Counted from the stretch's first letter, positions 8,674 through 24,171 are shown. The stretch is DNA of 64,000 nucleotides from a virus (IMGVR_UViG_3300032038_009890:128001-192000), one strand, 5' to 3'. The notes: generated by a model not told the origin, from the sequence alone. Made by a program: numbers and translations.

Positions 8674-8674
8674 A

Positions 8675-9264: not shown

Positions 9265-9384
9265 AATGACCTCCTTATGTGTGGGCTTCGTTGTTTACAT
9301 AGCCCATTATAATTACTTATCGCCTATAAAGCAATGTACAAAACTACCAAAACTTCATAGGCGATTTTGTGCAAGATTAACAAA

Positions 9385-10226: not shown

Positions 10227-10277
10227 GACTGTACCCCCTTATTTAGTTTTCAAAGGTCTGTCCTGTTGACAGGTCTA

Positions 10278-10306
10278 AGTGTACACCTACATTTAAACCA
10301 TGTCAA
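10278..10306 (-). promoter_or_regulatory. Early promoter, copy 2, with downstream boxA-like element (10244-10258)
   Basis: TTGACA-N17-TACACT; GACCTTTGAAAACTA. Confidence 0.8.
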
Positions 10307-10372
10307 TAGTTTTTCTCTGCAAATGTTACATCATCATTTGCCTTAGAGAGAAGGGGGCAAAGCCCCTCCTCA

Positions 10373-10777: not shown

Positions 10778-10813
10778 AGTAATTTATCCCCTTTCTTTTT
10801 TTAGAAGGGAGGA

Positions 10814-11155
10814 TTACTCCTCCCAATTTTCTACAAACTCAATTACCTGATCTGCCAAGTCCTCGCAGACCTCGCGAAAAGATGCATCCTCAAGAGTCTC
10901 CGTATCATACACCTGATCGCAGGAAGTCATTTCTTCATAGCCTTCGATGTTTCTTCTGGCCACAAAACACGCATCTTCACCGTCGGCGGAGCAAAGGAAG
11001 TGATAGCTGTCCTTACCCATCATTAAAACATGAAGATAATAATACGGAGCATCAGCTTCAAATTCACAGGTAGGCCAAGAAGAATTCGCCAAATGGTCAG
11101 CGATTTTCTCAATTAACTGCATCCTCATTCCCTTGGACTTTTTCATATCAATCAC
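10814..11155 (-). CDS. Hypothetical acidic early protein
   Basis: ORF after the 11202-11230 promoter. Confidence 0.6.
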   Translation of the reverse strand: MIDMKKSKGMRMQLIEKIADHLANSSWPTCEFEADAPYYYLHVLMMGKDSYHFLCSADGEDACFVARRNIEGYEEMTSCDQVYDTETLEDASFREVCEDLADQVIEFVENWEE

Positions 11156-11201
11156 CTTTCTCTTATTTAGTTGTCAAAGATCATATCTCATTGCAGATAT
11201 A

Positions 11202-11230
11202 AGTGTACACCTGTGGCAGAGGAAAGTCAA
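11202..11230 (-). promoter_or_regulatory. Early promoter, copy 3
   Basis: TTGACT-N17-TACACT; boxA-like element at 11168-11182. Confidence 0.75.
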
Positions 11231-11276
11231 CAGTAAATGTTATTTCTCTTTAACATTAACTTTCCCCTAAACCCGC

Positions 11277-12023
11277 TCAGATCGCGAACCTGCTCACAAC
11301 CCTTCTCCTCGGCGCTGTCTTTTCAATGATTGCCGCGGCTACATCCACCCTCCCGGCATCGTTTGCCATGTCGAGCAGGATTTTCATGTTCGCTTTGGTA
11401 ATCAGGTCCTCATTAACAAGGCGGATAATCGTGGCATCCGAAGTCCTGGAAAAGTAATCCTTTTCCTTTAACTCGTGCCCTGCGAATCTGTGGACATATT
11501 TACGAGATGCCTCACTGCCCTTCCCTGCATCTACCAGACCAAAGTAGGAATCAATCCAGAGCATCGGGTTATACCGTCTCTTATGACGACGCCGATCGGA
11601 AATAGTTATATATGTGTCAGCGAGATACACAAAAGCGCAAAACACATCATGAAATACAGACATAGACGTTCCTTTACGTATGGTAAATACTTCACCATAT
11701 ACATTTATATTTACATCATGACTAATAGCATCCTCATCAGACGCTATCAACATATCCATTAAATCATAAGATGTCAAAGACGCATAATCCAGATTGATGG
11801 TTTCTACGCAAGGGAAGTAGCAATCATGCTCACCCATCTTATAAAATGTGGAAAAGCCCAGAAAGTTCAGTGTTTTCGCTTTAATACCGAGATATACAAT
11901 ATCTTCCAAGCAAACGCCGCTGTGGAAGAAGATTGTCTCCACTCCCTCATACACGCCCTTGATGGAATCATGTCCATCTTTAAAAACGTGCAGTGTGGTC
12001 CCATTCCTCTCAAATCTTGCCAT
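11277..12023 (-). CDS. Hypothetical protein, paralog of 12151-12945
   Basis: Shared MARFxRxGxTLHV start, SDATIIRL, ANDxGRVDV and VVSxFAI end. Confidence 0.75.
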   Translation of the reverse strand: MARFERNGTTLHVFKDGHDSIKGVYEGVETIFFHSGVCLEDIVYLGIKAKTLNFLGFSTFYKMGEHDCYFPCVETINLDYASLTSYDLMDMLIASDEDAISHDVNINVYGEVFTIRKGTSMSVFHDVFCAFVYLADTYITISDRRRHKRRYNPMLWIDSYFGLVDAGKGSEASRKYVHRFAGHELKEKDYFSRTSDATIIRLVNEDLITKANMKILLDMANDAGRVDVAAAIIEKTAPRRRVVSRFAI

Positions 12024-12068
12024 TTCTTTTACCTCCTTATTCAGTTGCCAAGGTTCATCTCTTGTATA

Positions 12069-12097
12069 AGTGTACACTCATAAGATTAGGATGTCAA
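12069..12097 (-). promoter_or_regulatory. Early promoter, copy 4
   Basis: TTGACA-N17-TACACT; boxA-like element at 12042-12056. Confidence 0.8.
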
Positions 12098-12150
12098 CAG
12101 TAAATTAATTTTCCCTTTTACCGCTGACATCCATCTCAAGGCTCTCTTAT

Positions 12151-12945
12151 TCAGATTGCAAACTTGCTGACCACATTTCGCTTCGGAGCGGCCTTCTCCA
12201 GAATCTCCGCGACTACGTCAACCCGCCCGGAATCATTTGCCATACCTAGTAGGCTCAGCATCATTGCCTTGGTAAGCAAGTCCTCCCTGATCAGACGGAT
12301 AATCGTCGCATCAGAAGCTTTGGAGAAGTGCTTCTTTACGGCAGTACCTGCATGTCTGCGGACATATTTCCGGGATTCGTCATCGTCTTTGCCTACATCC
12401 TCCAGAGCAAAGAAGAGATCAATCCAGAAAAGCGGTTCACAGGAATCGTTCTTACGGTTCTCATAAGTCAGAAGTTCACACTGATTATAATAGCCAAAAA
12501 CGACTTGGCTGGCCCAGTTGACAATGCTCTGTGTAGTTCCCTTGGAGAACGTAGCCACGTAGGGAATTTTTCCATTGCGACGCCAACGCCTGACCGTCAA
12601 GTCATTTTCAAGTATAGGATCTTCCTTTCCGTAGTAGTGAAGACCCATCACCAGTCTGATGATATCATCAATACCGGTGACATCATCAATAAGAGAAGGA
12701 TACGAAAACACATCGATACTTTCCACACCATAGAAAACCCTGTCATATAAAGACAGCGAAGTAAAGCAATCCACATTATTGTTAAAATAAAGATGCTTTG
12801 CCTCGATGCCGGGAAATACCACATCCCTCAGGAGAACCCCTTCGTGGAAGTAGATAGAATCCACTCCCTCAAACACGCCGATGTTAGATTCCTTTCCATC
12901 AGCGTAAACATGCAGAGTAACGCCCTCCCTTACGAATCTTGCCAT
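12151..12945 (-). CDS. Hypothetical protein, paralog of 11277-12023
   Basis: Same shared motifs; GGAGG RBS. Confidence 0.75.
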   Translation of the reverse strand: MARFVREGVTLHVYADGKESNIGVFEGVDSIYFHEGVLLRDVVFPGIEAKHLYFNNNVDCFTSLSLYDRVFYGVESIDVFSYPSLIDDVTGIDDIIRLVMGLHYYGKEDPILENDLTVRRWRRNGKIPYVATFSKGTTQSIVNWASQVVFGYYNQCELLTYENRKNDSCEPLFWIDLFFALEDVGKDDDESRKYVRRHAGTAVKKHFSKASDATIIRLIREDLLTKAMMLSLLGMANDSGRVDVVAEILEKAAPKRNVVSKFAI

Positions 12946-12999
12946 TTCTCTTTCCCTCCCTGTATTCTGTTTTCAAAGGTCATCTCTGTTGCTGACATA

Positions 13000-13028
13000 A
13001 GTGTATACCTATAGATGTTCTTTGTCAA
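13000..13028 (-). promoter_or_regulatory. Early promoter, copy 5
   Basis: TTGACA-N17-TACACT; boxA-like element at 12967-12981. Confidence 0.8.
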
Positions 13029-13069
13029 CAATTATTTTTCCTTTTTTCAGAGCGGAGGAGAGCAGAGGA

Positions 13070-13342
13070 TTAATCCTCTGCATCATCCCACTGAGCAAGC
13101 TCCGCCTCAAGGCATCTGCGCTCGTACTCCTCCTCCGTTTCCGTTTCGGGAAGGTCAACAGTGGCCCAATCTTCATACTCATTGACCCAGACAGGGTCTC
13201 CCCAAGGATTAATCGTCAGGACCTCCCTGCCAGTGGCATGGACGAAACCCACACCATCCTCATGCCGATCAAACGGCATAGGACCAACAATCCTCCTGAT
13301 CTCCGTCATAGCTTTATCCTCCCTTAGTCTATCTTCGTGCAC
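13070..13342 (-). CDS. Hypothetical acidic protein (start probably 13309)
   Basis: GGAGG RBS before MTEIRR. Confidence 0.5.
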   Translation of the reverse strand: MHEDRLREDKAMTEIRRIVGPMPFDRHEDGVGFVHATGREVLTINPWGDPVWVNEYEDWATVDLPETETEEEYERRCLEAELAQWDDAED

Positions 13343-13614
13343 AGGGCAACCCGCATCAGGCCTTCCTGCGCATCATTTGCTCTCTCTTCCGCGATCAGAT
13401 CAGCATCTTTATAGCCCCAAGACGATAACTTGTAGGACATCCAAAGCGAAGCCAATTTGGCACAGTCAGTCACGCTCACGACACGATAAGCGTCGTCCTT
13501 CATATAGAGAAAACAACCCTCGAAGAAGTCGTAATGCCAGTCATCGTAGAATATACCATCCTTGGTATACGCCATAATGATATCATAAAGCCCGGTCTCG
13601 TCGAATATCTTCAT
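13324..13614 (-). CDS. Hypothetical early protein
   Basis: AGGAGG RBS. Confidence 0.6.
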   Translation of the reverse strand: MKIFDETGLYDIIMAYTKDGIFYDDWHYDFFEGCFLYMKDDAYRVVSVTDCAKLASLWMSYKLSSWGYKDADLIAEERANDAQEGLMRVALCTKID

Positions 13615-13691
13615 TTTCGCTTCCCTCCTGTACTAGATTAATGCTTTCATCTGGGAGAGCGACAGCAGTCGCCCTCTCAGTCAAAGCACAA

Positions 13692-13931
13692 TCATATAAA
13701 GTGAATTACCTTGTTTCCGTTGCTGTCTTCCACCCGCACCTTTCTTCCTTGGTTCAGATGATTGATGACAGCAAACGCCTCGTAAAAGGCGGCAAGTTCG
13801 TCGCTATCTTCGCTCCATCCAAGACGCGACAGCCAGTGCGCCTCTCTAGAGGGAACGCCGCCTCGATTCGCTTCCTCATCCTGCATGCAGTGCCTCATGA
13901 ATCCGTAGACGATGTTGTTTTTACTTTCCAT
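13692..13931 (-). CDS. Hypothetical early protein
   Basis: AAGGGG RBS. Confidence 0.5.
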   Translation of the reverse strand: MESKNNIVYGFMRHCMQDEEANRGGVPSREAHWLSRLGWSEDSDELAAFYEAFAVINHLNQGRKVRVEDSNGNKVIHFI

Positions 13932-14080
13932 TTCCGTTATCCCCTTTCTTAGTACATCCTAGTTAGTTTTCGCTTCGTGCAGGGGATTGCTCCCCTGCAT
14001 TTACCTTCGTCTTACAGATGCCGATTGTAGGTGAATCGGCTGTTGTTTCCCTCCTGTGTTGGTTTTCTCTTACGCATCTA

Positions 14081-14109
14081 AGTGTACACCTATCTGCGCT
14101 CGATGTCAA
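14081..14109 (-). promoter_or_regulatory. Early promoter, copy 6
   Basis: TTGACA-N17-TACACT. Confidence 0.8.
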
Positions 14110-14250
14110 CAACTTTTTTTGTTAATTTTCTCCTGCCCCGAAGGGCAGGTTTGCCTCCGTGCTTAGATTTTGTGGCAACGCGGGGAGCCTTCGCTTTCTC
14201 CCCGCCGCTCTTGGCCTAATGCCCTCGGCCTGTCGGCCCTGCCAAGACAG

Positions 14251-14568
14251 TCAGTCCGTAGTTTCAAAATAGTACTGAAGCTCATCATCCTTGAGATGGT
14301 CCATACAGTACTCATCTACCTTCTTCCAGAGGCTGTCGTACAGCCTGGAGAGTGCTTCGTCTCCGGCGTAGTAATGCTCCCAGATTTTGTGGTTAAGGAC
14401 CATCACAAGCTCCGTAAGATACTTGTAGTTCCCTTTCCAGTCCCGGAAGGCTCTGCTGTAGGTATCCCGCACCGCGGACGTTCCAAAGCGATCAGCAATG
14501 GAAAAGTCTTCCCAGAAGGTAGTGATGGGGGTATACCCCGGGATATCAAGCTTAAAATTGATCGTCAT
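14251..14568 (-). CDS. Phage hypothetical protein
   Basis: TTFWEDFSIADRFG..YLTELVMVLNHKIW; RBS present. Confidence 0.7.
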   Translation of the reverse strand: MTINFKLDIPGYTPITTFWEDFSIADRFGTSAVRDTYSRAFRDWKGNYKYLTELVMVLNHKIWEHYYAGDEALSRLYDSLWKKVDEYCMDHLKDDELQYYFETTD

Positions 14569-14653
14569 AGTAAATAATCCCCTTTCTCTTTGGCCCTGCC
14601 CCGAAGGGATTTCATTTCCCTCCGTACTGTGTTATTTATCGCTTGCAAGGATA

Positions 14654-14682
14654 AGTGTACACCTATATCTCGTCTTTGTCAA
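14654..14682 (-). promoter_or_regulatory. Early promoter, copy 7
   Basis: TTGACA-N17-TACACT. Confidence 0.8.
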
Positions 14683-14775
14683 CACTTATTTTATCCAACT
14701 TTTACTTCCACCAGAAGGGCTTTTGCCCCTCCGATGGTTTGCCTTCGACTTTCCCTTTGAGCGGGGCATCTAGTT

Positions 14776-15105
14776 TCAGAGGCTGATTTCCGTTGCTCCG
14801 TCGTACATCTCTAGGGCCTTGATGAGCCTCTTCAGGCGGCCTGTCTCAGAGACCCATGTCTTATAGGCCTCCCTGCTGTCGTGTCTGTCATCCGCACGAC
14901 AGTTGCCGTCCTCGTAGTAGCAGGAGAGCCAGTACTTAGCCTCCTTTTTCATCCATTCGACGGTGACTCTTCCTGCCTCGACTCCGTAGTACCTCGGGTT
15001 CTCGAAGATTTCGCCACCCTTCTCTACCATCAGATGATCGCATCCGATCGCCTCCATGGTCTTGTTAAACCGCTTCACGATCGTGGTAGTATTTGCCTTC
15101 TTCAT
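14776..15105 (-). CDS. Hypothetical early protein
   Basis: GGAGG RBS. Confidence 0.6.
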   Translation of the reverse strand: MKKANTTTIVKRFNKTMEAIGCDHLMVEKGGEIFENPRYYGVEAGRVTVEWMKKEAKYWLSCYYEDGNCRADDRHDSREAYKTWVSETGRLKRLIKALEMYDGATEISL

Positions 15106-15146
15106 TTTTTGTTTCCCTCCGTATTTGATTTTCCCTTGCAGGTATA

Positions 15147-15175
15147 AGTGTACACCTATACAGCAATGGTGTCAA
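15147..15175 (-). promoter_or_regulatory. Early promoter, copy 8
   Basis: TTGACA-N17-TACACT. Confidence 0.8.
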
Positions 15176-15238
15176 TACTTTTCCCTTGTAACTGTTACTT
15201 CTTCCCCCGGCTTTTCCTGCCGGGGGACTGATAAGGCA

Positions 15239-15580
15239 TCAATCGTAGTCACTCTCCTGCCGCGCCAGAATCCTGCCCTCCATGTGGCAAGCCATGTCGC
15301 TCACGTGGACGCGGGGCGTCTTTGAGGCAATCCTGCCGACAGGCTCCCCGTTGATATAGAGAGCGCCGTCATCCACCACAGGGACCATCTCAATGTCGGC
15401 CTGTTTGCCAACGCGCCACGCGGAGACCATCTTGACGATCTCAGAAGGCTCCGCGAGAGCTACATCAACGCCCACCTGCAGCAGAATCTCGGAGTTGATA
15501 AAGTTGATGATCGCCTTCCTTCTCATCGGCATTCCCTTCATGATTGTATTTCTCCTTTCGCTTTCGCTTGTTGTTGACAA
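15239..15580 (-). CDS. Hypothetical early protein (start probably 15541)
   Basis: AAGGAG RBS before MKGMP. Confidence 0.55.
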   Translation of the reverse strand: MSTTSESERRNTIMKGMPMRRKAIINFINSEILLQVGVDVALAEPSEIVKMVSAWRVGKQADIEMVPVVDDGALYINGEPVGRIASKTPRVHVSDMACHMEGRILARQESDYD

Positions 15581-15654
15581 CCTCCGGGAATTTCTCCCCG
15601 GAACGCTCCCGGCTTAATGCCCTTAGCCATCTCTGGCCCCGCCGGGACGGGTTA

Positions 15655-15972
15655 CTATTTGCCTTTGTATCTGTGACTGATGAGGCTCTCAGTGATTTCA
15701 AAAACGGTTTCCATCTTGTGGTAGATACGCGCCCGGAGGGTTCCATCCTCCAGATCATTTCCATCTTCCCAGAGGCCGCTCGCCATCAGGAAGTTCTCAT
15801 AGTCACTGTAGGTTTCATCCCAGTAGCAGGTGATGATCTCTTCCGCCGTCTCCCGTGCATTTCCCTCGTCGAGGCAGGTGTGGACTTCCTTTGCCATCTT
15901 TTTAAAGAGGCTCTCAAGCTTCAGCATGTAGGCCTCCGCCATCATCTCCTGCCAGACTTCATACTTCTTCAT
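15655..15972 (-). CDS. Hypothetical early protein (TAG-TAA double stop)
   Basis: GGAGG RBS. Confidence 0.6.
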   Translation of the reverse strand: MKKYEVWQEMMAEAYMLKLESLFKKMAKEVHTCLDEGNARETAEEIITCYWDETYSDYENFLMASGLWEDGNDLEDGTLRARIYHKMETVFEITESLISHRYKGK

Positions 15973-16011
15973 TTCCGTTCCCTCCAGTGCATGTTAGTTT
16001 TCGCTTACGAA

Positions 16012-16305
16012 TCAGTGATCAGTTCCGTATCCTGCGTCAAGCAGGTTCCCTTCTTCGTCACGGATTTCCATCCGCAGAGGGTCAAAGGGCTTGCTCAGAG
16101 AGCACCAAGTTCCGTAGAAGTAGCACTTCTTCGGGCCATCCTCGGTAACAAGGTAGATGTACTTGACGCTTTCATCCGTGCAGTCCGCCATGTCCATGCG
16201 ATTGAATAGTTCATTCGCGGTGCACAGGGTAGAGAAGTTGCTGAAAGGTTCAGTGATGCAGACTAAATACTTATTCATTTCGCTTTCCTTTCTGGTTACA
16301 GCCAA
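16012..16305 (-). CDS. Hypothetical early protein (start probably 16278)
   Basis: AAGGA RBS before MNKYLV; ends GYGTDH. Confidence 0.6.
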   Translation of the reverse strand: MAVTRKESEMNKYLVCITEPFSNFSTLCTANELFNRMDMADCTDESVKYIYLVTEDGPKKCYFYGTWCSLSKPFDPLRMEIRDEEGNLLDAGYGTDH

Positions 16306-16326
16306 TTACTTTTCGCTTTGTGTACA

Positions 16327-16355
16327 AGTGTACACCTATATAGGACTTTTGTCAA
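16327..16355 (-). promoter_or_regulatory. Early promoter, copy 9
   Basis: TTGACA-N17-TACACT. Confidence 0.8.
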
Positions 16356-16661
16356 CCCCCTTTTTCTTCTGGTGCGGGGGGAGATTTCTCTCCCCCCATT
16401 TCCCTTACCAGTTGCGAGTCATGAAGGCATTGCCCACAGCCGCAAGAGGCAGGCCGACGCGAAAGTTACGCTTGTAGATCAGGTATAAGCCTGACCCAAA
16501 CATAATCATCCCCGTCGTAATCATTATGTTTTTAAAGTTCATCTTCTCGTTCCCTTCTGTTATTCTTCGCTTGCCCCATCCTAGCAGTTTTTTACTCCCT
16601 TGGCAAGTAGCAGATTGCACAAAAGTTTTGGTTTGCCTTTGCGCAATCTGTACAACCTGTC

Positions 16662-16871
16662 TCAGTCCATGCCTAGGTCTTCCTCCGGGACTCCCGGCAG
16701 GTTTCCCATGCAGTAGGCCTCCCAGATGCCTTCCACGATTTCTTTGGCATATACTTCGTTATCGACTTCGGCTACCTCCCTGTCAGCAATCCGGTTCAGT
16801 GCCTCAGCGATTTCCTCCCAGTTGATAGGACACTCTGCCCCAAAGCTGTCCACGGTGAAGTATTCTTTCAT
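16662..16871 (-). CDS. Hypothetical acidic protein
   Basis: AAGGAG RBS. Confidence 0.6.
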   Translation of the reverse strand: MKEYFTVDSFGAECPINWEEIAEALNRIADREVAEVDNEVYAKEIVEGIWEAYCMGNLPGVPEEDLGMD

Positions 16872-16904
16872 TTCTATCTCCTTTCTGTTTGCCTTACAGG
16901 CCTA

Positions 16905-16933
16905 AGTGTACACCTGTATGGCGCCTTTGTCAA
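16905..16933 (-). promoter_or_regulatory. Early promoter, copy 10
   Basis: TTGACA-N17-TACACT. Confidence 0.8.
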
Positions 16934-16960
16934 CGGTAACATTAACTTCTGGCGGCTCCC

Positions 16961-17164
16961 TCACCTCATAGATGCAGTACACTGAACCGCATCCGCCAGT
17001 GTGGCATATGCGGTGGCACAGGTCTCCATGCGGTGATGACTATTGTCGTTGGTATACACCTTCCAGAGAGGTTTCCCTGCCTGGTACACCCTACAAGCTA
17101 TGTAGGGGTAATCATCTACCTCAAACCTGTATCTACTTTGACCCTCATATAAATTGTAATTCAT
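16961..17164 (-). CDS. Hypothetical protein
   Basis: AGGAGG RBS. Confidence 0.55.
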   Translation of the reverse strand: MNYNLYEGQSRYRFEVDDYPYIACRVYQAGKPLWKVYTNDNSHHRMETCATAYATLADAVQCTASMR

Positions 17165-17238
17165 AATTTCCTCCTATGACTTTTCTCTTGGTTACATCTC
17201 AGTGGGCGAGGGGCTTTTCCCTCCCCCACTCAGTGCAG

Positions 17239-17484
17239 TCAAGAAATCCGTAATACCTCGGAGAAAGGGATGAACATCTCCCCCCAGAGGAAGCCATCTA
17301 CCTCCTCGCCATCGTCGTTCTCCTGCGTGGTAAAGGGGCATTTCTCTGTTGACTTTACCTCGTCTTGGTCAGTCGTCACAGTGATGACATGGACCTCCTC
17401 CATGTAATCATCTACGTCAACCACCAGAAGCGCCGCGGTATTGCTCAGCACATACACGCCCATTGCATTGATTTTGTTAGTCAT
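17239..17484 (-). CDS. Hypothetical acidic protein
   Basis: GGAGG RBS; translationally coupled. Confidence 0.6.
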   Translation of the reverse strand: MTNKINAMGVYVLSNTAALLVVDVDDYMEEVHVITVTTDQDEVKSTEKCPFTTQENDDGEEVDGFLWGEMFIPFSEVLRIS

Positions 17485-17687
17485 CGCTTATTCCTCCTCC
17501 TGTCCTCTCTCCAGAGATTGTTCCTCCGCTCCCTCTCCTCATCCAAGTGGTCTTTGCCCAGAGCCAAAACAAACAGCACTGCGCAAACCAGAGCAATGAT
17601 CAGGGAGCCGTTGCCCTGCTCCGCATCCGCTACAAAGACGGACACAAGGACCACAGGGAGCATGACGGCCGCCGCAATTCCTGCCAT
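17481..17687 (-). CDS. Small membrane protein with two hydrophobic segments
   Basis: Two hydrophobic stretches and a basic tail. Confidence 0.5.
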   Translation of the reverse strand: MAGIAAAVMLPVVLVSVFVADAEQGNGSLIIALVCAVLFVLALGKDHLDEERERRNNLWREDRRRNKR

Positions 17688-18012
17688 AGTTGTCTCATGC
17701 TACTCCACGCGGGGAGAGGACTTTGTGCCCCCTCCCCTGTTGTCACGCCTTTGGCTTGACGGGGATAAATTCGCCCTCGATGATAAACGTCACCTTGTCG
17801 GACTGCTCACCCTCATCGGCCACCCGCCTGAAAAGACCTTCGAAGTTGACGCCCTCGGCCTCCAGGCGGATGTACACAGTACCATCGGCGTTACCGTGGA
17901 TGTGTAGCATGATGCACCTCCTCTCGTGTTGGATTTTGTGGGATGTGCCCACATCGCAGAGAGCAAGGCGCGTAGCCTTCCTCCCTGCATCTAGGTACAT
18001 CCTAGCAGATAG

Positions 18013-18639
18013 TTATCGCCTGCACGTAAACAGGCCGTTCCGCAGCGTGACCTCAGAGAAGACCTGCTGAAGCTCGGGAAGATACTGCCTCACCTTACGG
18101 TTAAGCTGATAGCAGTCCTTCTTCGTCTGACGGCCATCCGCGGAGCCGTCGCCGTCGTACACTGTGATGTACACGGTATCCGCCAGAGAGGCTAGTGTTT
18201 CTAGGACATCATGACGGGCCTCTTCTTCGGCGATGACATTGAGAACGTTGCTGCACAGGGCAGTGTCGTAGTGGTTCAGCAGGAGCCAGGGACGCGGCAA
18301 GTTGTACGGGTCGTGGCCAACCACGTTCTCGGGCAGGTCATACAGATCGAAGTACCTACCACAGCCAAAGTCGATCGTGGAACCTGTCTTGCTCACATCC
18401 ACCAGAGAGTAGATGCGTGGCATCTTGCTCGAGTTGATAGAGGTATCTGCGGAGGTGTATTCCTGCGCCACGCACGGCCTGATGGCCTCTACACGGGCCT
18501 GGAAGCTCTCCTCCCAGAGAGCCTTGACGACGTCGGCGTCATCCGCGGAGACCTGCTCCAGGGCTTTGTTCCAGTCTGCCAGAATGGTGTTCAGTGCGGT
18601 CTCAGTTGTCTCGATGGTGGTCATATTGGTATTCTGCAT
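18013..18639 (-). CDS. Class I SAM-dependent methyltransferase
   Basis: IDFGCG motif I, HDPYN, CSNVLNVI. Confidence 0.8.
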   Translation of the reverse strand: MQNTNMTTIETTETALNTILADWNKALEQVSADDADVVKALWEESFQARVEAIRPCVAQEYTSADTSINSSKMPRIYSLVDVSKTGSTIDFGCGRYFDLYDLPENVVGHDPYNLPRPWLLLNHYDTALCSNVLNVIAEEEARHDVLETLASLADTVYITVYDGDGSADGRQTKKDCYQLNRKVRQYLPELQQVFSEVTLRNGLFTCRR

Positions 18640-18684
18640 TGTAATATCCTCCTCAGATTGTAAAAAGTAGTTTTGTGAACCAAA

Positions 18685-18750
18685 TGGGCGCAGAGGAATC
18701 GAACCTCCAAGGGCAGGGATTGCTCACTCCCCGCCCCGCACCAACAGCCC
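18685..18750 (-). ncRNA. tRNA-like minihelix element F
   Basis: GGGCTGT/GCGCCC acceptor-like stem, TGG loop, 10-bp arm, GGAGG TTCGATT CCTCT T arm. Confidence 0.6.
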
Positions 18751-18753
18751 TAC

Positions 18754-19086
18754 TTAGAACCGCTTAATCCTTACAGATGCGGCTTTGTATTTATTGAGAA
18801 TGTAGGCCTTGAAAGCTTTCATGTCCTCAGTACGGACTTCAAAACAGCCCCTGTAATCATACCGATGATAGCCCCCGCGGTTCAGCTTTTCACCGTCCCA
18901 CGTCCACACGTTGCACCGCGTCTTATCCAGAGATAAACGCGCCTGGGAGAAATCTTCGCTCCCCTCTGCTATTAGTTCGCCGTCGGTGGTGTATTCTTTG
19001 TAGGAATACTCCACTTGGGTCCACTGCCTTTTCTCGCCGAACCACTCATTGAGAATCTTCCCGTAGATTCGTACAGTATTGCTCAT
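18754..19086 (-). CDS. Hypothetical protein
   Basis: AGGAG RBS. Confidence 0.6.
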   Translation of the reverse strand: MSNTVRIYGKILNEWFGEKRQWTQVEYSYKEYTTDGELIAEGSEDFSQARLSLDKTRCNVWTWDGEKLNRGGYHRYDYRGCFEVRTEDMKAFKAYILNKYKAASVRIKRF

Positions 19087-19132
19087 AGTCTTACACTCCT
19101 GTTGTTTTGATGATGGCTTTTAAAAAACCGAA

Positions 19133-19176
19133 TGGGGAAGGGGGATTGAACCTCAGAAGAGCATCCACGCTCCCCC
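19133..19176 (-). ncRNA. tRNA-like minihelix element E (degenerate)
   Basis: GGGGGA/TTCCCC, GCG TGGA TGC, GAGG TTCAATC CCCC. Confidence 0.45.
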
Positions 19177-19184
19177 GGTTGTAG

Positions 19185-19652
19185 TTAGTTTTCCTCTAGA
19201 TAATCGCTGTTGAGTGCATCTGTGTTATAATATTCGACTATAGTCCGCTTGATTTCCTCAAACGGAGTGTAACGCCGGAACGTACAACTCCCGGCACAGT
19301 TACCATCTTCTTTGGAGAAGTCAATAACCATTTCTCCCTGAAGATTGTTAGCTTTATGGCGCAGTGCAGGCCACTGCGCTTCCGTCGGGCAAACACTGAT
19401 GTCAATCCCGAACGGGGAGAGACGGATGGCGCCCATATTCATATAGGCAATAAGACCCGCCCCATATGTTGCAGGCAGGTCCCCATCGTCGAAACAGTCC
19501 ACGATTTCCCGGTGGTCAATGTCTCGCATGTGACCATCGCTAGAGAAACGCAGGAGTTTCCCCTGGGTCGTAATGTATCCCGCCAGGTCAAGATTTGAGG
19601 TGACCCCGAACATCTCTTCTGCACGGGATTCGATTGCTGCGGTGTTTGTCAT
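19185..19652 (-). CDS. Hypothetical protein
   Basis: AGYITTQG..DHREI..MGAIR motifs; RBS present. Confidence 0.65.
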   Translation of the reverse strand: MTNTAAIESRAEEMFGVTSNLDLAGYITTQGKLLRFSSDGHMRDIDHREIVDCFDDGDLPATYGAGLIAYMNMGAIRLSPFGIDISVCPTEAQWPALRHKANNLQGEMVIDFSKEDGNCAGSCTFRRYTPFEEIKRTIVEYYNTDALNSDYLEEN

Positions 19653-19698
19653 GTTTATTCTTCCCCTTTCATGTCATCTTCACAGAGGAGAGGCCCTT

Positions 19699-20469
19699 TC
19701 AGGCCGCTTCCTCTCTCCACTCGGTTATCAATTCCTCCCGGAACGCCCACCCGGCCTTTACGGCTCGGACAGTACGCGCCCCGGACTTTGTCGCCAACAG
19801 CACCAGAACCACCAGGTACCCGGCGGCCTGGACTACTCCCCAGATGATGACGGGAGCGACGGCCACGACCATCTGGCGGACAGTCAGAGCCACCTGGCGG
19901 GTAATCATAGCCGCCTTGACAGCTACCCGGGAGATAGTCTTAGCCATTTTGATGGCTCCTCTCCCGGCCTTGACGAAACCACAGGAGACCACAACAGCCC
20001 CGCGGCCCAGGGAGGCAAACACCTGCACCAGAACGGCCAGAACAGGGAGAACCATCTCCCAGGTGACCTCTATGGCAGAGGTAGCGCCGTCCCAGATACA
20101 CAGGACAGACTCCCAGACCCTGGCAAGGATGTCGAGCGGATGCCAGACGGGAGCGGGAGTAGGATTGACGGCGGGGACAGGCTCCGCCACGGCGACGGGA
20201 GTAGATGCCCGCACTACTACAGGAGCGGGAACGACGGGGACAACGGGAGCGGGAACGGCCTCTTCCACTTCTACGGGAGCCTGGACAGACTCAGCGGGGC
20301 GGGCATCCTCAGCGGGAGCCTCTTCCACGGCTACGGGAGCGGCTTTCTCGAGCCACTCCAAGACGGTTTTGGGGGCAGTGGTGTACTTGCGGACGGTGCC
20401 GCTTTCATACGTCACCGTGTAGACACCTTCCAGGACCTCGACAGAAACGATGCTGACCTTCTTTGCCAT
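19699..20469 (-). CDS. Pro/Ala/Val-rich protein with a long hydrophobic C-terminal half
   Basis: GGAGG RBS before MAKKVS; low-complexity linker. Confidence 0.6.
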   Translation of the reverse strand: MAKKVSIVSVEVLEGVYTVTYESGTVRKYTTAPKTVLEWLEKAAPVAVEEAPAEDARPAESVQAPVEVEEAVPAPVVPVVPAPVVVRASTPVAVAEPVPAVNPTPAPVWHPLDILARVWESVLCIWDGATSAIEVTWEMVLPVLAVLVQVFASLGRGAVVVSCGFVKAGRGAIKMAKTISRVAVKAAMITRQVALTVRQMVVAVAPVIIWGVVQAAGYLVVLVLLATKSGARTVRAVKAGWAFREELITEWREEAA

Positions 20470-20515
20470 GATAATACCTCCATACGTTTTGAAATGTGTT
20501 TGTATAGCTACAAAA

Positions 20516-20563
20516 CAGGCGGGAGGGAATCGGACCCTCACTCTATGGCAACCATGCCGCCCG
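20516..20563 (-). ncRNA. tRNA-like minihelix element D
   Basis: CGGGCGG/CCGCCTG 7 bp, ATGG TTG CCAT, GAGGG TCCGATT CCCTC. Confidence 0.65.
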
Positions 20564-20651
20564 TGTGGTTCAATCGACGTCAAAATCCTCCGCCGGGAGT
20601 ACGTCCCCGGCGGGGATGTAGGGGGCCGCGTCGCTCTCACGACGGAAGCCC

Positions 20652-20945
20652 TTAGTAGGGGCGGGGGCCGATGAACTCGGTCTCCCACTCCCGATGGAGA
20701 TCGGCGAGAACGGCATTGAGGCGTTTTTCCACCTCTACGGGGAGGTCCCATTCTTCCCAGCCACTCTGGCGGATCTCCCACGCCCGGAAGTAGACAGCCT
20801 CACCAAAGTAGGCATCTACTTCGAAATCGTCGCCGTCGATCTCGATGAAACCGACGGGGACCTTGACAGAAACCTCCAGAGAGGTGGAGGTGCACTCGGG
20901 CAGAACAGACAGGATACGGGAAACGACATCGACAGTATTCATCAT
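20652..20945 (-). CDS. Hypothetical acidic protein
   Basis: GGAGG RBS. Confidence 0.6.
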   Translation of the reverse strand: MMNTVDVVSRILSVLPECTSTSLEVSVKVPVGFIEIDGDDFEVDAYFGEAVYFRAWEIRQSGWEEWDLPVEVEKRLNAVLADLHREWETEFIGPRPY

Positions 20946-21075
20946 AACTTAGCCCCTCCTCCGGGCTTTTGAGAAACAGGTTTTTAACAAGTACCTTCCC
21001 ACTCCAGACACTTTCAACAAAACAGACAGCGCAAGGCTTGCCCGTCCCGCTTATTCGTGCAAGTGTATCAGGAAA

Positions 21076-21124
21076 AAGCAGGGCGGGCGTCGAACCCGCA
21101 CCGGGAGCCTTTGCTCACCTGCTT
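21076..21124 (-). ncRNA. tRNA-like minihelix element C
   Basis: AAGCAGG/CCTGCTT 7 bp, GAGC AAAG GCTC, GCGGG TTCGACG CCCGC. Confidence 0.7.
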
Positions 21125-21245
21125 AGATCGTCACCGCTTGATTACCATAACGGTGATTTTGTACGCCAGACGGCGAGGAACACCCGCCGCCCGGAGCTTT
21201 GTATACAGGTTGTTGCGCTTTTCAATCATGACTCTCCCTCCCCTC

Positions 21246-21647
21246 TCAGTCAAGGAACCACTCAGCAGGAGCCACGATCTCAGGCTTCCCCGGGACGGGA
21301 GCGACGGTGCACGCCGTCGGTTCCTGATTTGCCGCGGGGAAGATACCCTCATGCCGGAGCAGGTCCCCAATGAGGGAGGGGTTTACATAGACGGGAGCGC
21401 CGATGATATGGGTCCAAACAAGGGTCCAATCGTCGGGAACACCCGCAGGGCGACAGCACCCGCCGTTCATGGTGGTCTCGAAAGACCACGTCCCGTCGGA
21501 GTTGAAAGCGAGCCACAGGGAGACGGACTGACAGCCATCGAATTCCCTGTCGGCGTTCTTTACGAAGCTGACAGCGTCGCGGACGATGCAATCAAAAAAG
21601 CGGGTGGTGGTGGCGTTGATGGTGGCGCTGGTGGTGATCTTTTTCAT
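21246..21647 (-). CDS. Hypothetical protein
   Basis: AGGAGG RBS before MKKITTS. Confidence 0.55.
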   Translation of the reverse strand: MKKITTSATINATTTRFFDCIVRDAVSFVKNADREFDGCQSVSLWLAFNSDGTWSFETTMNGGCCRPAGVPDDWTLVWTHIIGAPVYVNPSLIGDLLRHEGIFPAANQEPTACTVAPVPGKPEIVAPAEWFLD

Positions 21648-21689
21648 GATAATATCCTCCTGTTTTGAAAAGTGTTTTATAGTTACCAA

Positions 21690-21740
21690 ACCCGGCAGGG
21701 GAGTCGGACCCCTGTGAAGCATGCCGCCACGGCGCCGGGT
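21690..21740 (-). ncRNA. tRNA-like minihelix element B
   Basis: ACCCGGC/GCCGGGT 7 bp, GCCG TGG CGGC, AGGGG TCCGACT CCCCT. Confidence 0.7.
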
Positions 21741-21753
21741 AGTTGTCGCCTTT

Positions 21754-22656
21754 TCAGGCGGCAAAGCTTTTCTGTGCAAGAAGAACCTGCACAAGTTCTT
21801 CCCAACGGGGGTCTTTCGTTGGGTCGTATTTTCTGTCCCCGTGCTTAAGGAACAGGACATGCTTCAACCTACTACATGCAGTACAGCCCTTGCAGTGGTG
21901 CCGCTCCTCTTTCGGGATATCCTTCTGGTCAAGGGCGCACAGGCAAATGTGCGTCTCAATTCCCATATCTAGAAGCATCTGGCGGGCCGCCAAGATTTCA
22001 TCGATGGTGCCAAAGTTGTACTGGCCCCAAGGAAGAATTGACTCTACCATGTTAAAGTTTGGCAGGGCGTTTAATCGCTCCGCGATGGTTTCCTTGGTGT
22101 ACGCCCAGAAAGCGCACCCCGGGACACGGGAGATGATATTCTCCCACATGGAGACATAACGCGGGGAGAAGAAGTCCCCGGTTACATGGATACGGCAAAG
22201 CTTGGAACAGACGCGACTCCAGTGCTTTATCTCGCCATCTTTCAGGCGTTGTCCGCGTTTGCCGTAACGCGGGACAAGCTCGACTTCGCAGTTCCATCCG
22301 TCGCCCCACATGAGCTGGGCGACAATGGCGTTTTCCAGCCATTCCGGGTACTCCCGGGCGGCTTTTGTTCTCCAGGCAAGGGCGTCCTGGACAGCGGGGT
22401 CCAGATAATGCCCGGTCAGGCAGTAACCGCCCTTGCAGGTATGGGAGCAGGTGCCATGCATGGTGACTTGCTCGCCGTTCACATTGACAGTGTAGTCAAT
22501 GTCCCCGGGAAGCATCGACCATCCGGCCGCCCAGGTTTTTGAGCCGACCACAAGGGGAAGGGGGACCCACTCCCCCCACGGAGCGAGGATGTTTCCATCC
22601 ACGTTCATGGTAATGCCAAAGCCGTGGAAAAATTCCATCTTCGTAGTCCTTGCCAT
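21754..22656 (-). CDS. Gp88-like protein (Cys clusters, radical-SAM-like)
   Basis: TCSHTCKGGYC, RIHVTGDFFS, FWAYTK, C-terminal CKGCTAC..FLKH. Confidence 0.7.
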   Translation of the reverse strand: MARTTKMEFFHGFGITMNVDGNILAPWGEWVPLPLVVGSKTWAAGWSMLPGDIDYTVNVNGEQVTMHGTCSHTCKGGYCLTGHYLDPAVQDALAWRTKAAREYPEWLENAIVAQLMWGDGWNCEVELVPRYGKRGQRLKDGEIKHWSRVCSKLCRIHVTGDFFSPRYVSMWENIISRVPGCAFWAYTKETIAERLNALPNFNMVESILPWGQYNFGTIDEILAARQMLLDMGIETHICLCALDQKDIPKEERHHCKGCTACSRLKHVLFLKHGDRKYDPTKDPRWEELVQVLLAQKSFAA

Positions 22657-22716
22657 TTTTACGTCCTTTCCGCCCCGCCCCGCGGGGTCTTTGTAAAGCA
22701 GGTTTATAGTTCTCAA

Positions 22717-22802
22717 AGCAGGGGGAAGGAATCGAACCTTCCTCACGCGCTGTACAAGCCGCGTTTCCCGTCGGCGGTCGTTTTGTTGCACCGCCCCCTG
22801 CT
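22717..22802 (-). ncRNA. tRNA-like element A (cloverleaf-like)
   Basis: AGCAGGGG/CCCCTGCT, two internal arms, GAAGG TTCGATT CCTTC. Confidence 0.65.
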
Positions 22803-23766
22803 CTTGTTACTCGTTCGGCTAGGAATAGCCGCTTTCGCCCCGTCCATGGTGGCTACTCACGGTTCACTCCCTTCGGGGGAGTAGCGAATTACCTAGTTAT
22901 CGCGTTTTTGCAAGGGTATCACGGCGGGCGGTTAGTTATCGCCTATGGCCGCTTATACTTGCATCCACATAGGGAGAATCCATCCCCGTCTATTCAGTTT
23001 TCAAGGTTCATAGTGGCAGCCGCTTGCCTTGCAAGGTCCCCCCGTAAGGGCGGGGAGCTGTTTCGGCGGGCCGCCGTCACACCCCGGACACCGATACCGT
23101 TGTGTGTGTGTGTTTCTCAGGAGCTTTGCTCCCTCATCGGCGTAGCTAAACTATAGCATACGGGGCCGGGTGTACAAGAAAAAATTGCAGTTTTTTACCC
23201 CCCCCCGCATCCTGTACCTGATCCTGTATCTATCACGGGGTGTAACCCCCTATTTTCAGCGTTTTGCCCCAGATCCCCGCCAGGGGATCTGGTAGCTGTT
23301 ACACCTACACACCAACCTCTCATAAAATCCCGATACATTCATCCCCTCCCCACAAACCCCGGCCAGATCGGCCTTTCCATCGCATCCTTCCCACCCCCAA
23401 AAATATTTTACCCCTTTCATTTTCCCGGTCTCCGCCCGAAAATCCTGCACCCCTCCCCTCTTTTCAGCATATAATAGGCGCATTCTGCGCCTATACATAC
23501 AGGCCAAAATACAGCGCAGTTACATTTACAGGCGAATACTGTTGACTTTCCTTGCCTTTTCTCGTATAATAACGGATGGTGGAGGAGGCCCCGCATATAT
23601 AGGGGCCCCGCCAATAAGAAAGGAGAATCCACAATGATCTGCTTCGAAAACTGCTATCATTACTATCAAAGCGAGAATGGGAAATTCTGCGACATCTGGG
23701 GAGACTATGGCCCAACTACTCCCCCTACTTTAGTTTGCTATTTTGAGCCTGAAAAAGGAGATTCAA

Positions 23767-24171
23767 ATGCACAATAACCTAGAAATTTATTCTATGCAAG
23801 AACTCACAGAAAAATACTACAAAAGTTTAAAAAATGAAGCGTTAAAACTAGCCAAAAAGAAACAAGAATACATCAACGCCAAGATAAAAGTAATTAATTA
23901 TGACCTAAATGTAACATCCGAATTTGGCAGGTCTTACATCGAAATAGGCATAGAGGAATGGGCTTACCCTGCTGTCGTTGAGCCTTTTATTTCAAAAGGC
24001 TATGTAGTAAAAATCCTCTATCGCTATAAAGATACAGATGGAACTCGCTATATAGTACCTGACCAGAACAAAAACTACTGTACATGCTATAAATGCCGTA
24101 TCTACATTATTCCACCAAAAGAAAATTTTCTTCAGACACTAATAGAAAGGACAAAATATTTATGCAAATAA
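23767..24171 (+). CDS. Hypothetical protein, paralog family A
   Basis: YINAKIKVIN..IEEWA..GY..CxIYI shared with 24984 and 25785. Confidence 0.65.
   Translation: MHNNLEIYSMQELTEKYYKSLKNEALKLAKKKQEYINAKIKVINYDLNVTSEFGRSYIEIGIEEWAYPAVVEPFISKGYVVKILYRYKDTDGTRYIVPDQNKNYCTCYKCRIYIIPPKENFLQTLIERTKYLCK

What the first reader, a model, noticed from the sequence alone, without database searches (positions are those of the whole stretch)
18685..22802. Six tRNA-mimic minihelices punctuate the first early operon, each in a different intergenic gap
Seen on the transcribed minus strand at 22717-22802, 21690-21740, 21076-21124, 20516-20563, 19133-19176 and 18685-18750. Each has a roughly 7-bp acceptor-like stem stacked directly on a 5-bp stem (4 bp in the degenerate copy E) closing a T-loop: TTCGATT, TCCGACT, TTCGACG, TCCGATT, TTCAATC, TTCGATT. 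Most also have a mini D-like hairpin or loop, often containing GG, and none has a proper anticodon arm. An example is ACCCGGC-GCCG TGG CGGC-ATGCTTCAC-AGGGG TCCGACT CCCCT-GCCGGGT. Stem sequences differ but the geometry is kept, which implies selection on structure. Each lies in an intergenic gap upstream of the next gene's RBS, usually just after a stop codon. Established: the 12-bp acceptor-T helix is what RNase P, RNase Z and CCA-adding enzyme recognise. Inference: this is tRNA-punctuation processing of phage mRNA into stabilised units, or release of small tRNA-elbow decoys against tRNA-targeting defences or T-box/stringent sensing. I know of no described phage system like this.
Basis: partly seen in the sequence, partly recalled or inferred. 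Interest (0 to 1): 0.85.

Follow-up and report, generated by a model that had tools for sequence, protein, structure and literature searches.

The report
tRNA-like cut marks between phage genes
Six small RNA folds that copy the top half of a tRNA (no anticodon arm) sit between the first genes of an accessory-gene operon in a 217-kb provirus. Related phages carry self-cutting ribozymes in equivalent gaps of the same kind of operon, so the folds most likely tell the host's tRNA-trimming enzymes where to cut the long message.

Summary
Elements A-D are clean: a 7-bp acceptor stem stacked directly on a 5-bp T stem with a TYCGAYN loop. F has one acceptor mismatch and E is degenerate. All lie on the coding (minus) strand in intergenic gaps.

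A descriptor scan finds 5 hits on the coding strand of the 20.5-kb high-GC region. Shuffles give 0.11 and the other strand gives 0. No Rfam family or tRNA finder calls them.

The same class occurs in three other phage lineages that share the operon's first gene (GP88): L001 (4-5 copies), L015 and L017/L018. Other GP88 operons carry Pistol, Twister-P5 or type II hammerhead ribozymes on the coding strand. The four in L012 lie in gaps 24-32 nt before the next gene.

B, D, E and F each end 42-46 nt before the next ATG. B and D share a conserved leader, yet their acceptor stems differ at every position and still pair.

Best reading (about 0.55): cis-acting signals for host RNase P and RNase Z, a phage counterpart of plant mitochondrial t-elements and an alternative to ribozyme punctuation. 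No RNA data exist, so cleavage is inferred.

This scan has already noted the same class in other phages. I found no published description.

The parts
22717..22802 (-). Element A: 84-86-nt tRNA-like RNA in the 5' leader, 61 nt before the GP88 start codon. It has a 7-9-bp acceptor stem, a 6-bp D-like stem, a third hairpin without an anticodon-type loop, and a T arm GAAGG-TTCGATT-CCTTC.
   Evidence: MFE -41.4 kcal/mol, z -3.3; tRNA-Sec 26.7 bits, below gathering score
21690..21740 (-). Element B: 51 nt. Acceptor ACCCGGC/GCCGGGT, a mini D-like hairpin with a TGG loop, and T arm AGGGG-TCCGACT-CCCCT. It starts 13 nt after the GP88 stop and ends 42 nt before the next ATG.
21076..21124 (-). Element C: 49 nt. 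Acceptor AAGCAGG/CCTGCTT and T arm GCGGG-TTCGACG-CCCGC, followed by T5. It starts 6 nt after the stop of a 32-codon ORF.
20516..20563 (-). Element D: 48 nt. Acceptor CGGGCGG/CCGCCTG (one G-U pair) and T arm GAGGG-TCCGATT-CCCTC. It ends 46 nt before the next ATG. It is a paralogue of module B.
19133..19176 (-). Element E: degenerate copy. Outer stem GGGGGA/TTCCCC, a D-like hairpin with a GTGGAT loop, and a T arm with TTCAATC but only 3 standard pairs. It is followed by T6 and ends 46 nt before the next ATG.
   Evidence: missed by both descriptors
18685..18750 (-). Element F: acceptor TTGGTGC/GCGCCCA (6/7 pairs), one long internal hairpin, and T arm GGAGG-TTCGATT-CCTCT. It ends 45 nt before the ATG of the 208-aa methyltransferase-like gene.
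21648..21689 (-). Conserved 42-nt leader behind B (TTTGGTAACTATAAAACACTTTTCAAAAC-AGGAGG-ATATTATC). Related leaders follow D (20470-20515), E (19087-19132), F (18640-18684) and, in part, A and C. Together with the element it forms a portable 5'-UTR module.
   Evidence: alignment A6. The motif occurs nowhere else in the genome.
21754..22656 (-). First gene of the unit, GP88 family (PF17338), 300 aa. It is the conserved anchor used to find relatives.
18013..21647 (-). Seven further genes with strong SD sites (133, 32, 97, 256, 155, 110 and 208 aa). The first six have no family match. The last is a widespread methyltransferase-like phage protein.
23150..23177 (-). Putative promoter of the unit (TTGTAC-16 nt-TGc-TATAGT). 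It would give a structured leader of about 330 nt before element A.
   Evidence: Read from the sequence. The consensus scan did not call it. Inference.

Best explanation
The six elements are tRNA-derived RNA structures that have lost the anticodon arm. They keep the acceptor stem stacked on the T arm, usually with a small D-like hairpin, and are transcribed as part of one polycistronic message.

They act in cis as recognition sites for the host's tRNA-maturation nucleases. RNase P would cut at the 5' end of the acceptor stem. RNase Z would cut after the discriminator base. Cutting splits the transcript into single-gene or short mRNAs, each with a uniform leader of about 45 nt. It would also release 48-84-nt mini-tRNAs as by-products.

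Functionally they do the same job as the self-cleaving ribozymes that punctuate related operons, but with host enzymes doing the cutting.

Shown: the structures, their excess over chance, their strand and gap placement, their recurrence in relatives, and ribozymes in related operons.

Inferred: transcription as one unit, cleavage, which enzyme cuts, and the benefit to the phage.
For: 1. The anatomy matches what the tRNA end-processing enzymes need. There is a continuous 7+5-bp helix. The closing G53-C61 pair is invariant (12 of 12). The T-loop is T-(T/C)-C-(G/A)-A-N-T, with 5 of 7 positions invariant or nearly so. These counts come from 12 elements in four phage lineages, whose connectors vary from 10 to 53 nt.

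2. Pairing is kept while sequence is not. Each acceptor position shows 3-5 different pair types. Swapping 3' strands between elements leaves only 2.98 of 7 pairs. Modules B and D share the T-loop and most of their leader, but their acceptor stems differ at all 7 positions and both still pair.

3. There are 5 hits on the coding strand against 0.11 expected and 0 on the other strand. In 35 non-redundant GP88 loci, T-arm-only motifs occur 14 times on the coding strand and twice on the other strand. Thirteen of the 14 are closed by an acceptor helix.

4. Related GP88 operons carry self-cleaving ribozymes, all on the coding strand. L012 has two Pistol and two Twister-P5, each in an intergenic gap ending 24-32 nt before the next ORF. 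L025 has a Twister-P5 starting at the upstream stop, and L039 has a hammerhead II starting 10 nt after a stop and cut off by the contig end.

5. The phage's own tRNAs encode no CCA, and all 11 have T straight after the discriminator. In 8 of the 12 elements the two bases after the acceptor stem are TT, and T predominates at each position (9 and 10 of 12). RNase Z cuts CCA-less precursors right after the discriminator (PMC8549757).

6. The element-to-ATG spacing is regular: 42, 46, 46 and 45 nt.

7. The punctuated 5-6 kb has none of the ten promoter-like repeats that head the genes further downstream. That fits one long transcript that needs processing.

8. There is precedent. Plant mitochondrial t-elements share the GGTTCRANYCC motif and act as RNase P/Z signals at mRNA ends (PMC1920247).
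Against: - No RNA evidence at all: no RNA run holds this sequence.
- The host is unknown.
- No orthologues at intermediate divergence were found, so covariation is shown only across paralogues and distant lineages. These were partly selected for pairing.
- The small genes beside the elements have no homologues in the ribozyme-bearing loci. The equivalence is therefore at the level of operon type, not an identical slot.
- Many relatives of the array have tightly packed genes with no element of either kind, so punctuation is dispensable.
- C, D and E are followed by T-rich runs and could also terminate transcription.
- RNase Z cleavage would leave a 5'-monophosphate on the downstream mRNA. In many bacteria this destabilises a message (my knowledge), so the benefit is unclear.
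Confidence: 0.55

Rival explanations
1. The released mini-tRNAs are the point. Once excised, they act in trans. They might be decoys or sponges for host factors that recognise the tRNA elbow or acceptor end, such as tRNA-targeting defence nucleases or 3'-end-cleaving toxins. They might instead be partners of a phage RNA-binding protein. This is compatible with cleavage but puts the selected function in the small RNA.
For: The same genome carries further anticodon-less tRNA-like RNAs outside any mRNA context. Examples are genome 127845-127905 and window 49763-49806, inside the tRNA islands. Earlier notes on this genome list about ten more, which I did not check. All 12 tabulated connectors contain GG, and in several it lies in a hairpin loop that could form a tRNA elbow with the T-loop.
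Against: Ribozymes in related operons leave no tRNA-like product, so the shared property is cutting. The acceptor and connector sequences differ completely from copy to copy, which is unexpected for a specific ligand. No Pfam TROVE/Ro60 domain, CCA-adding enzyme or RNase Z was found in the phage.
Confidence: 0.13
2. They are structural elements that act without being cut. They could be leaky intrinsic terminators or attenuators. They could also be stable folds that block exonucleases or uncouple translation of neighbouring cistrons.
For: T-rich runs follow C (T5), D (T4) and E (T6). The consensus scan flags C's T arm plus T run. In some relatives the gap after GP88 holds an ordinary hairpin terminator (L002, L012, L019). 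In L001, L015 and L017 a small stable hairpin follows 3-6 nt after each element.
Against: A, B and F have only 2-4 T in the eight bases after the discriminator. That is no more than behind the phage's real tRNAs. A terminator or roadblock does not need a conserved T-loop, an invariant G53-C61 pair, or an exact 7+5-bp stack. A closing stem across a 35-70-nt multiloop makes a poor terminator hairpin (my knowledge).
Confidence: 0.12
3. They are decaying tRNA genes. An old tRNA array was invaded by small genes, and the remnants have no present function.
For: The phage has tRNA islands with many odd tRNAs. A still has a cloverleaf-like shape. E and F look eroded.
Against: Decay should hit the T-loop and the stems as often as the anticodon arm. 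Instead, 12 elements from four lineages keep the same 12-bp stack and T-loop while the middle shrinks to as little as 10 nt. They are tied to a conserved leader at fixed spacing, and all face the coding direction.
Confidence: 0.08
4. They act at the DNA level. Folded or tRNA-like attachment sites would let a tyrosine recombinase gain and lose single-gene cassettes, loosely like integron attC sites.
For: Gene content between the conserved anchors (GP88, the methyltransferase-like gene, the integrase) is almost completely different in the closest relative. Each extra gene in the window comes with its own element plus leader. An integrase lies in the same array. tRNA genes are classic integration targets (my knowledge).
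Against: The copies share no core sequence beyond the T-loop. Strict co-orientation with transcription and tRNA-type tertiary positions point to RNA. Ribozymes in related operons have no DNA-recombination role. The one variant junction seen between close relatives (L107 against the L001 contig) does not fall at an element.
Confidence: 0.05

Closest known systems
Plant mitochondrial t-elements (Forner et al. 2007, PMC1920247) and the mitochondrial tRNA-punctuation model
   Same: Both are non-canonical tRNA-like folds with the GGTTCRANYCC T-arm motif. Both lie in untranslated parts of polycistronic transcripts. Both are read as signals for RNase P and RNase Z that create mRNA 5' and 3' ends.
   Different: These are in a bacterial virus, not an organelle. 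They form a dense series of six in about 4 kb, each tied to a conserved 42-46-nt leader. Most are far more reduced, down to 42-51 nt. Cleavage is mapped experimentally for t-elements and not at all here.
Clustered self-cleaving ribozymes flanking single genes in prophages near integrases (Perreault et al. 2011, PMC3088659; Pistol and Twister near phage genes, Harris et al. 2015, PMC4604425)
   Same: The genomic setting is the same: an array of small, variable accessory genes in a provirus with an integrase, and an RNA element in each gap on the coding strand. Relatives of this very operon carry Pistol, Twister-P5 and hammerhead II.
   Different: The elements here have no ribozyme core (no Rfam hit). 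They would depend on host enzymes. The cleavage chemistry and end groups would also differ.
mascRNA / MALAT1 3'-end tRNA-like element (PMC8457004; title and abstract start seen, paper not read)
   Same: A tRNA-like fold inside a long transcript that is cut by RNase P and RNase Z to define the end of the long RNA and release a small tRNA-like RNA (the cleavage details are my knowledge).
   Different: It is eukaryotic, nuclear, a single copy and has a full cloverleaf. There is no relation in sequence or context.
Genuine tRNA genes (Rfam RF00005) and phage tRNA clusters with small stable RNAs (T4 species 1 and 2)
   Same: Acceptor stem, T arm, T-loop consensus, CCA not encoded, and a T-rich trailer like the phage's own tRNAs.
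   Different: There is no anticodon arm. ARAGORN and Rfam call none of them. They lie between protein genes, not in a tRNA cluster.

Membership tests
tRNA (RF00005 / ARAGORN) | Complete cloverleaf with an anticodon stem and a 7-nt anticodon loop; score above the Rfam gathering threshold | tested here: not met
   ARAGORN finds only 4 tRNAs elsewhere in the window. Rfam at gathering threshold finds none in 18-23 kb. At E<=10 only A matches, to tRNA-Sec at 26.7 bits against 47. Elements in relatives get no hit at E<=10.
tRNA (RF00005 / ARAGORN) | 7-bp acceptor stem continuous with a 5-bp T stem, a T-loop of TTCRANN type, and a closing G53-C61 pair | tested here: met
   A-D are perfect, F has one mismatch and E is degenerate.
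t-elements / tRNA-punctuation signals | tRNA-like fold with the T-arm motif, placed in a non-coding part of a polycistronic transcript next to a gene end | tested here: met
   All six lie between a stop codon and the next SD on the coding strand. That the unit is one transcript is inferred from the absence of the downstream promoter-like repeat.
t-elements / tRNA-punctuation signals | mRNA ends coincide with the element's ends; cleavage by RNase P and/or RNase Z | not testable with these tools
   No RNA run holds the sequence. This needs end mapping or in vitro cleavage.
Self-cleaving ribozyme punctuation of prophage gene arrays | Several RNA elements flank single genes or short blocks of variable genes in a prophage near an integrase | tested here: met
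   There are six elements among eight genes. The integrase is at 4787-5800 in the same array, and the record is classed as a provirus. The published layout is described in PMC3088659.
Self-cleaving ribozyme punctuation of prophage gene arrays | A catalytic core of a known self-cleaving class | tested here: not met
   No ribozyme family was found in the window at gathering threshold, or in 18000-23500 at E<=10. Ribozymes were found only in relatives.
Intrinsic (Rho-independent) terminator | A G+C-rich hairpin followed directly by a run of at least about 5 T in 8 bases | tested here: inconclusive
   C, D and E have T4-T6 after the closing stem. A, B and F have no more T than the trailers of the phage's real tRNAs.
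Bacterial Y-RNA-like (YrlA) tRNA-like modules with Ro60/Rsr | A tRNA-like domain joined to a Ro60-binding stem, encoded next to a Ro60/TROVE gene | tested here: not met
The genome has no match to Pfam TROVE.

The most novel reading that the evidence does not exclude
Phages have evolved a portable 5'-UTR cassette made of a mini-tRNA and a fixed leader of about 45 nt. The cassette is copied in front of newly acquired accessory or anti-defence genes. Host RNase P and RNase Z then cut every gene out of the long transcript with the same leader. The excised mini-tRNAs accumulate, perhaps with CCA added, and serve a second role as decoys for host defences that attack the acceptor end or elbow of tRNAs.
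Probability: 0.12. Interest if true: 0.85.

Novelty: new variant of a known kind. Interest (0 to 1): 0.62.

Why it matters
If the elements are cut as proposed, tailed phages use the same trick as mitochondria. They would borrow the cell's tRNA-trimming enzymes to turn one long transcript into separate messages.

It would also help explain why self-cleaving ribozymes cluster in phage accessory-gene arrays, a question open since 2011-2015. Both kinds of element would simply be interchangeable cut marks.

It would add phage mRNAs to the natural substrates of bacterial RNase P and RNase Z. It would supply compact natural parts (42-51 nt) for insulating genes in synthetic operons. It would also flag a class of RNA that tRNA finders and Rfam both miss.

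The test is direct: map the RNA ends, or cut the transcripts in vitro.

Tried and rejected
- RNA evidence: no RNA holder is listed for window 18000-23200. Only one DNA run holds it, with a share of 0.08.
- Covariance model: a model from B alone (R1) found only B, isolated T arms and one mini-tRNA at 49763-49806. MAFFT could not align the 5' acceptor strands because the connectors differ in length. I therefore built no family model and used my own descriptor scans with shuffles and strand controls instead.
- Close orthologues for true covariation: short-query blastn of 14 elements against all loci found only identical copies. Contigs 97.5-99.4% identical to the L001 contig carry identical elements.
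- DNA search of 50,697 phage records with the 5.5-kb region: no match.
- Single-protein scans of IMG/VR with GP88 and with the 155-aa gene: nothing.
- The shared 22-nt leader as an exact pattern in IMG/VR: nothing.
- GP88 profile against species genomes: only distant partial hits, so no host was identified.
- Function of the genes: Pfam, PHROGs and NCBIfam name nothing except GP88 and a weak methyltransferase signal. The GP88 profile finds no solved structure.
- Phage-encoded CCA-adding enzyme, RNase Z or TROVE domain: none.
- Sigma-70-type promoter inside the elements or leaders: none called. My manual attempts to fit -35/-10 boxes to the leader failed.
- Same-slot swap test: the genes flanking the elements have no homologues in the ribozyme-bearing loci. 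Homologues of the 208-aa gene in other contigs sit in tightly packed arrays with no element.
- The idea that window 4-24 kb is a separate mobile element inserted in the phage: rejected as the simple reading. A relative (L001/L109 contig) is syntenic across the integrase into the ParB-like and MrpR genes.

Full report
SETTING

The window is bases 128001-192000 of a single 217,075-bp record. IMG/VR classes the record as a provirus, 98% complete. The genome averages about 35% G+C, but window 4000-24000 reaches 46-58%. All genes in that stretch run on the minus strand.

The finding covers the first part of this stretch. Eight genes with strong Shine-Dalgarno sites follow one another between 22656 and 18013. 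The first gene belongs to Pfam family GP88. The last is a methyltransferase-like protein with more than 250 relatives in phage-like contigs. The rest match no family.

About 13 kb further down the same strand lie a tyrosine integrase (4787-5800), a 411-aa protein and an MrpR-like recombinase.

THE OBSERVATION

- A, B, C and D each have seven acceptor pairs, five T-stem pairs and a seven-base loop of the form T-(T/C)-C-G-A-(T/C)-N. The pair closing the loop is G-C, and no base separates the T stem from the 3' acceptor strand. This is the coaxial 12-bp arm of a tRNA.
- F has one acceptor mismatch.
- E is eroded. Its T stem has only three standard pairs.
- None has an anticodon arm. A has a third hairpin, but its loop is not of anticodon type.

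ARAGORN and Rfam call none of them. Only A reaches 26.7 bits on the tRNA-Sec model, which needs 47.

A descriptor that requires the loop motif, the closing G-C pair, and at least 11 of the 12 pairs of the two stems combined finds five elements on the coding strand of the 20.5-kb region. One hundred dinucleotide shuffles give a mean of 0.11, and the other strand gives none. Across the whole genome, further hits fall only in the two tRNA islands, apart from one AT-rich hit that is probably chance.

Each element sits between a stop codon and the next ribosome-binding site. B, D, E and F end 42, 46, 46 and 45 nt before the next ATG.

MODULES

The gaps align beyond the elements. B, D, F, E, and in part A and C, share a leader of the type TTTGGTAACTATAAAACACTTTTCAAAAC, then the SD, then ATATTATCATG. 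This leader occurs nowhere else in the genome.

B and D are clear paralogues. They have the same unusual TCCGAYT loop and most leader positions are identical. Yet their acceptor stems (ACCCGGC/GCCGGGT and CGGGCGG/CCGCCTG) differ at all seven positions, and both pair fully. This is the best evidence in the window itself for selection on pairing rather than on sequence.

RELATIVES

No phage record resembles the region at the DNA level. Profile searches with GP88 gave 100 loci from IMG/VR and metagenomes, plus loci fetched from other assemblies. Of these, 35 non-redundant loci hold full-length relatives.

The closest relative has a GP88 56% identical to the window's. It is a 27.5-kb contig (L001/L106/L109) that is syntenic from GP88 through the integrase to the 411-aa and MrpR-like genes. 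Almost all the small genes in between are different.

That contig has four or five elements of the same class on the coding strand, all in gaps. One lies upstream of GP88, in the same position as element A. One of the five (at about 2597-2658) is less clear and is left out of the 12-element table. Two more distant lineages, L015 and L017/L018, also carry the elements just downstream of GP88.

Over the 35 non-redundant GP88 loci, a bare T-arm motif occurs 14 times on the GP88 strand and twice on the other strand. Thirteen of the 14 are closed by an acceptor helix, and five of those lie in L027's tRNA cluster.

I tabulated 12 elements from four lineages. The connector ranges from 10 to 53 nt. 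The closing G-C pair is invariant. Five of the seven loop positions are invariant or nearly so. Every acceptor position shows three to five pair types. Pairing falls from about 6.8 to 2.98 of 7 when 3' strands are swapped between elements. Because the elements were partly found by their pairing, the independent evidence is the excess over shuffles and the strand bias, not the pair counts.

THE KEY COMPARISON

Rfam at gathering thresholds finds six self-cleaving ribozymes in GP88 loci, all on the GP88 strand and none on the other:

- L012: Pistol, Pistol, Twister-P5, Twister-P5.
- L025: Twister-P5.
- L039: type II hammerhead.

In L012 the four ribozymes fill successive gaps between small ORFs and end 24-32 nt before the next start. 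In L025 the Twister-P5 starts at the upstream stop. In L039 the hammerhead starts 10 nt after a stop and is cut off by the contig end.

This layout is published. Multiple hammerheads flank single genes or short blocks of variable genes in prophages near integrases, including an ardA gene. The authors suggested that long phage transcripts are processed into single-gene mRNAs (PMC3088659). Pistol and Twister are likewise associated with phage genes (PMC4604425).

Other relatives of the present array carry ArdA, ArdC-N, SprT-like, DUF932 and GmrSD/DarA-like genes. The array therefore looks like an anti-restriction or establishment region. Many relatives have tightly packed genes and no element of either kind.

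MECHANISM

What ribozymes and mini-tRNAs have in common is that they lead to a cut in the RNA. The 12-bp acceptor/T arm with its T-loop is the part of a tRNA that RNase P, RNase Z and the CCA-adding enzyme recognise, and minihelices of this kind are known substrates (my knowledge).

The phage's own 11 tRNAs encode no CCA, and each has T straight after the discriminator. The elements have similar trailers: T at the first position after the stem in 9 of 12 and at the second in 10 of 12. RNase Z cuts CCA-less precursors directly after the discriminator (PMC8549757).

The phage encodes no RNase Z, CCA-adding enzyme or TROVE domain that Pfam models can see. Host enzymes would therefore act.

The punctuated stretch lacks the promoter-like repeat (TTGACA, 17 nt, TACACT inside the palindrome GTGTACAC) that precedes genes ten times between 16933 and 4128. 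This suggests two designs side by side. Upstream, one long transcript is cut at mini-tRNAs. Downstream, there are many short units, each with its own promoter.

The unit's own promoter is probably at 23177-23150. That would put A about 330 nt into a structured leader. This is inference.

RIVALS

- A trans-acting role for the excised mini-tRNAs cannot be excluded. The genome holds other anticodon-less tRNA-like RNAs in its tRNA islands. However, the ribozyme equivalence and the lack of any shared sequence outside the T arm argue for a function in cis.
- Termination or attenuation is plausible for C, D and E, which are followed by T4-T6. A, B and F have no more T than real tRNA trailers, and a terminator does not need a T-loop.
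- Neutral decay of tRNA genes does not explain why only the middle is lost in 12 elements from four lineages.
- A DNA-level cassette-recombination role fits the variable gene content. It lacks any shared core site, and ribozymes in related operons cannot be explained that way.

KNOWN AND NEW

The closest described systems are plant mitochondrial t-elements and tRNA punctuation (PMC1920247) and ribozyme-punctuated prophage arrays (PMC3088659). Full-text searches found no report of tRNA-like punctuation in phage operons.

This scan has reported the same class several times in other phages, with the same reading. This window is therefore a further case, in a new phage lineage with new relatives. 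It adds a paralogue-based covariation argument and the pairing of each element with a fixed leader.

VERDICT

The structures are real and far beyond chance. The proposed processing function is well motivated but untested. I rate the finding a new variant of a known kind, with interest 0.62.

Noticed in passing
window 4128, 10306, 11230, 12097, 13028, 14109, 14682, 15175, 16355, 16933 (minus strand): Ten copies of a promoter-like repeat: TTGACA, 17 nt, then TACACT. The -10 half lies inside the perfect palindrome GTGTACAC. Most copies follow a hairpin and precede one to three small genes. This may be a promoter/operator array under one repressor. There are no copies in 17000-23200.
   Followed up: partly
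window 4000-24000: A 20-kb stretch of 46-58% G+C lies in a genome of about 35% G+C. The syntenic relative (L001/L109) shows a weaker rise (0.47 falling to 0.39). The cause is unknown.
   Followed up: partly
window 49763-49806 (+): Another 44-nt anticodon-less mini-tRNA (AATCCGC ... AGGGT-TTCGACT-ACCCT-A-GCGGATT) sits inside the plus-strand tRNA cluster. A further one lies just outside the window at genome 127845-127905 (minus).
   Followed up: partly
window 22803-23135 (minus strand): A leader of about 330 nt lies between the putative promoter and element A. Its last 143 nt fold with z -2.6, and no shuffle folds as well. There is no Rfam match.
   Followed up: partly
L001 gaps (e.g. 1137-1215, 3758-3839, 5126-5261, 7422-7553, 8825-8957, 10002-10127): The closest relative has its own repeated gap motifs: TGTACAAATTGCACA-type sites, and a leader GACTAACAATCAAATCTGG..TATGCTTYCCATGCC. 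One L001 gene (start 4306) has the same 22-nt SD region as the window's gene behind element B.
   Followed up: no
L001, L015, L017 (e.g. L017:5686-5710 and 6379-6405): In the relatives, each tRNA-like element is followed 3-6 nt later by a small stable hairpin. It might protect the new 5' end after a cut.
   Followed up: no
L128:1739-4762; L109:8820-13784; L125/L126:2346-3332: Relatives of the array encode ArdA, ArdC-N-like, SprT-like, DUF932 and GmrSD_N/DarA_C proteins. This suggests the whole array is an anti-restriction or establishment region.
   Followed up: no
genome tRNAs (e.g. 127632-127705, 176425-176500, 179030-179101): Three of the phage's tRNAs have an unusual T-loop region (GGGAGCATAACCC or ACGGAGCATAACCGT) in place of GGTTCGAATCC.
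   Followed up: no
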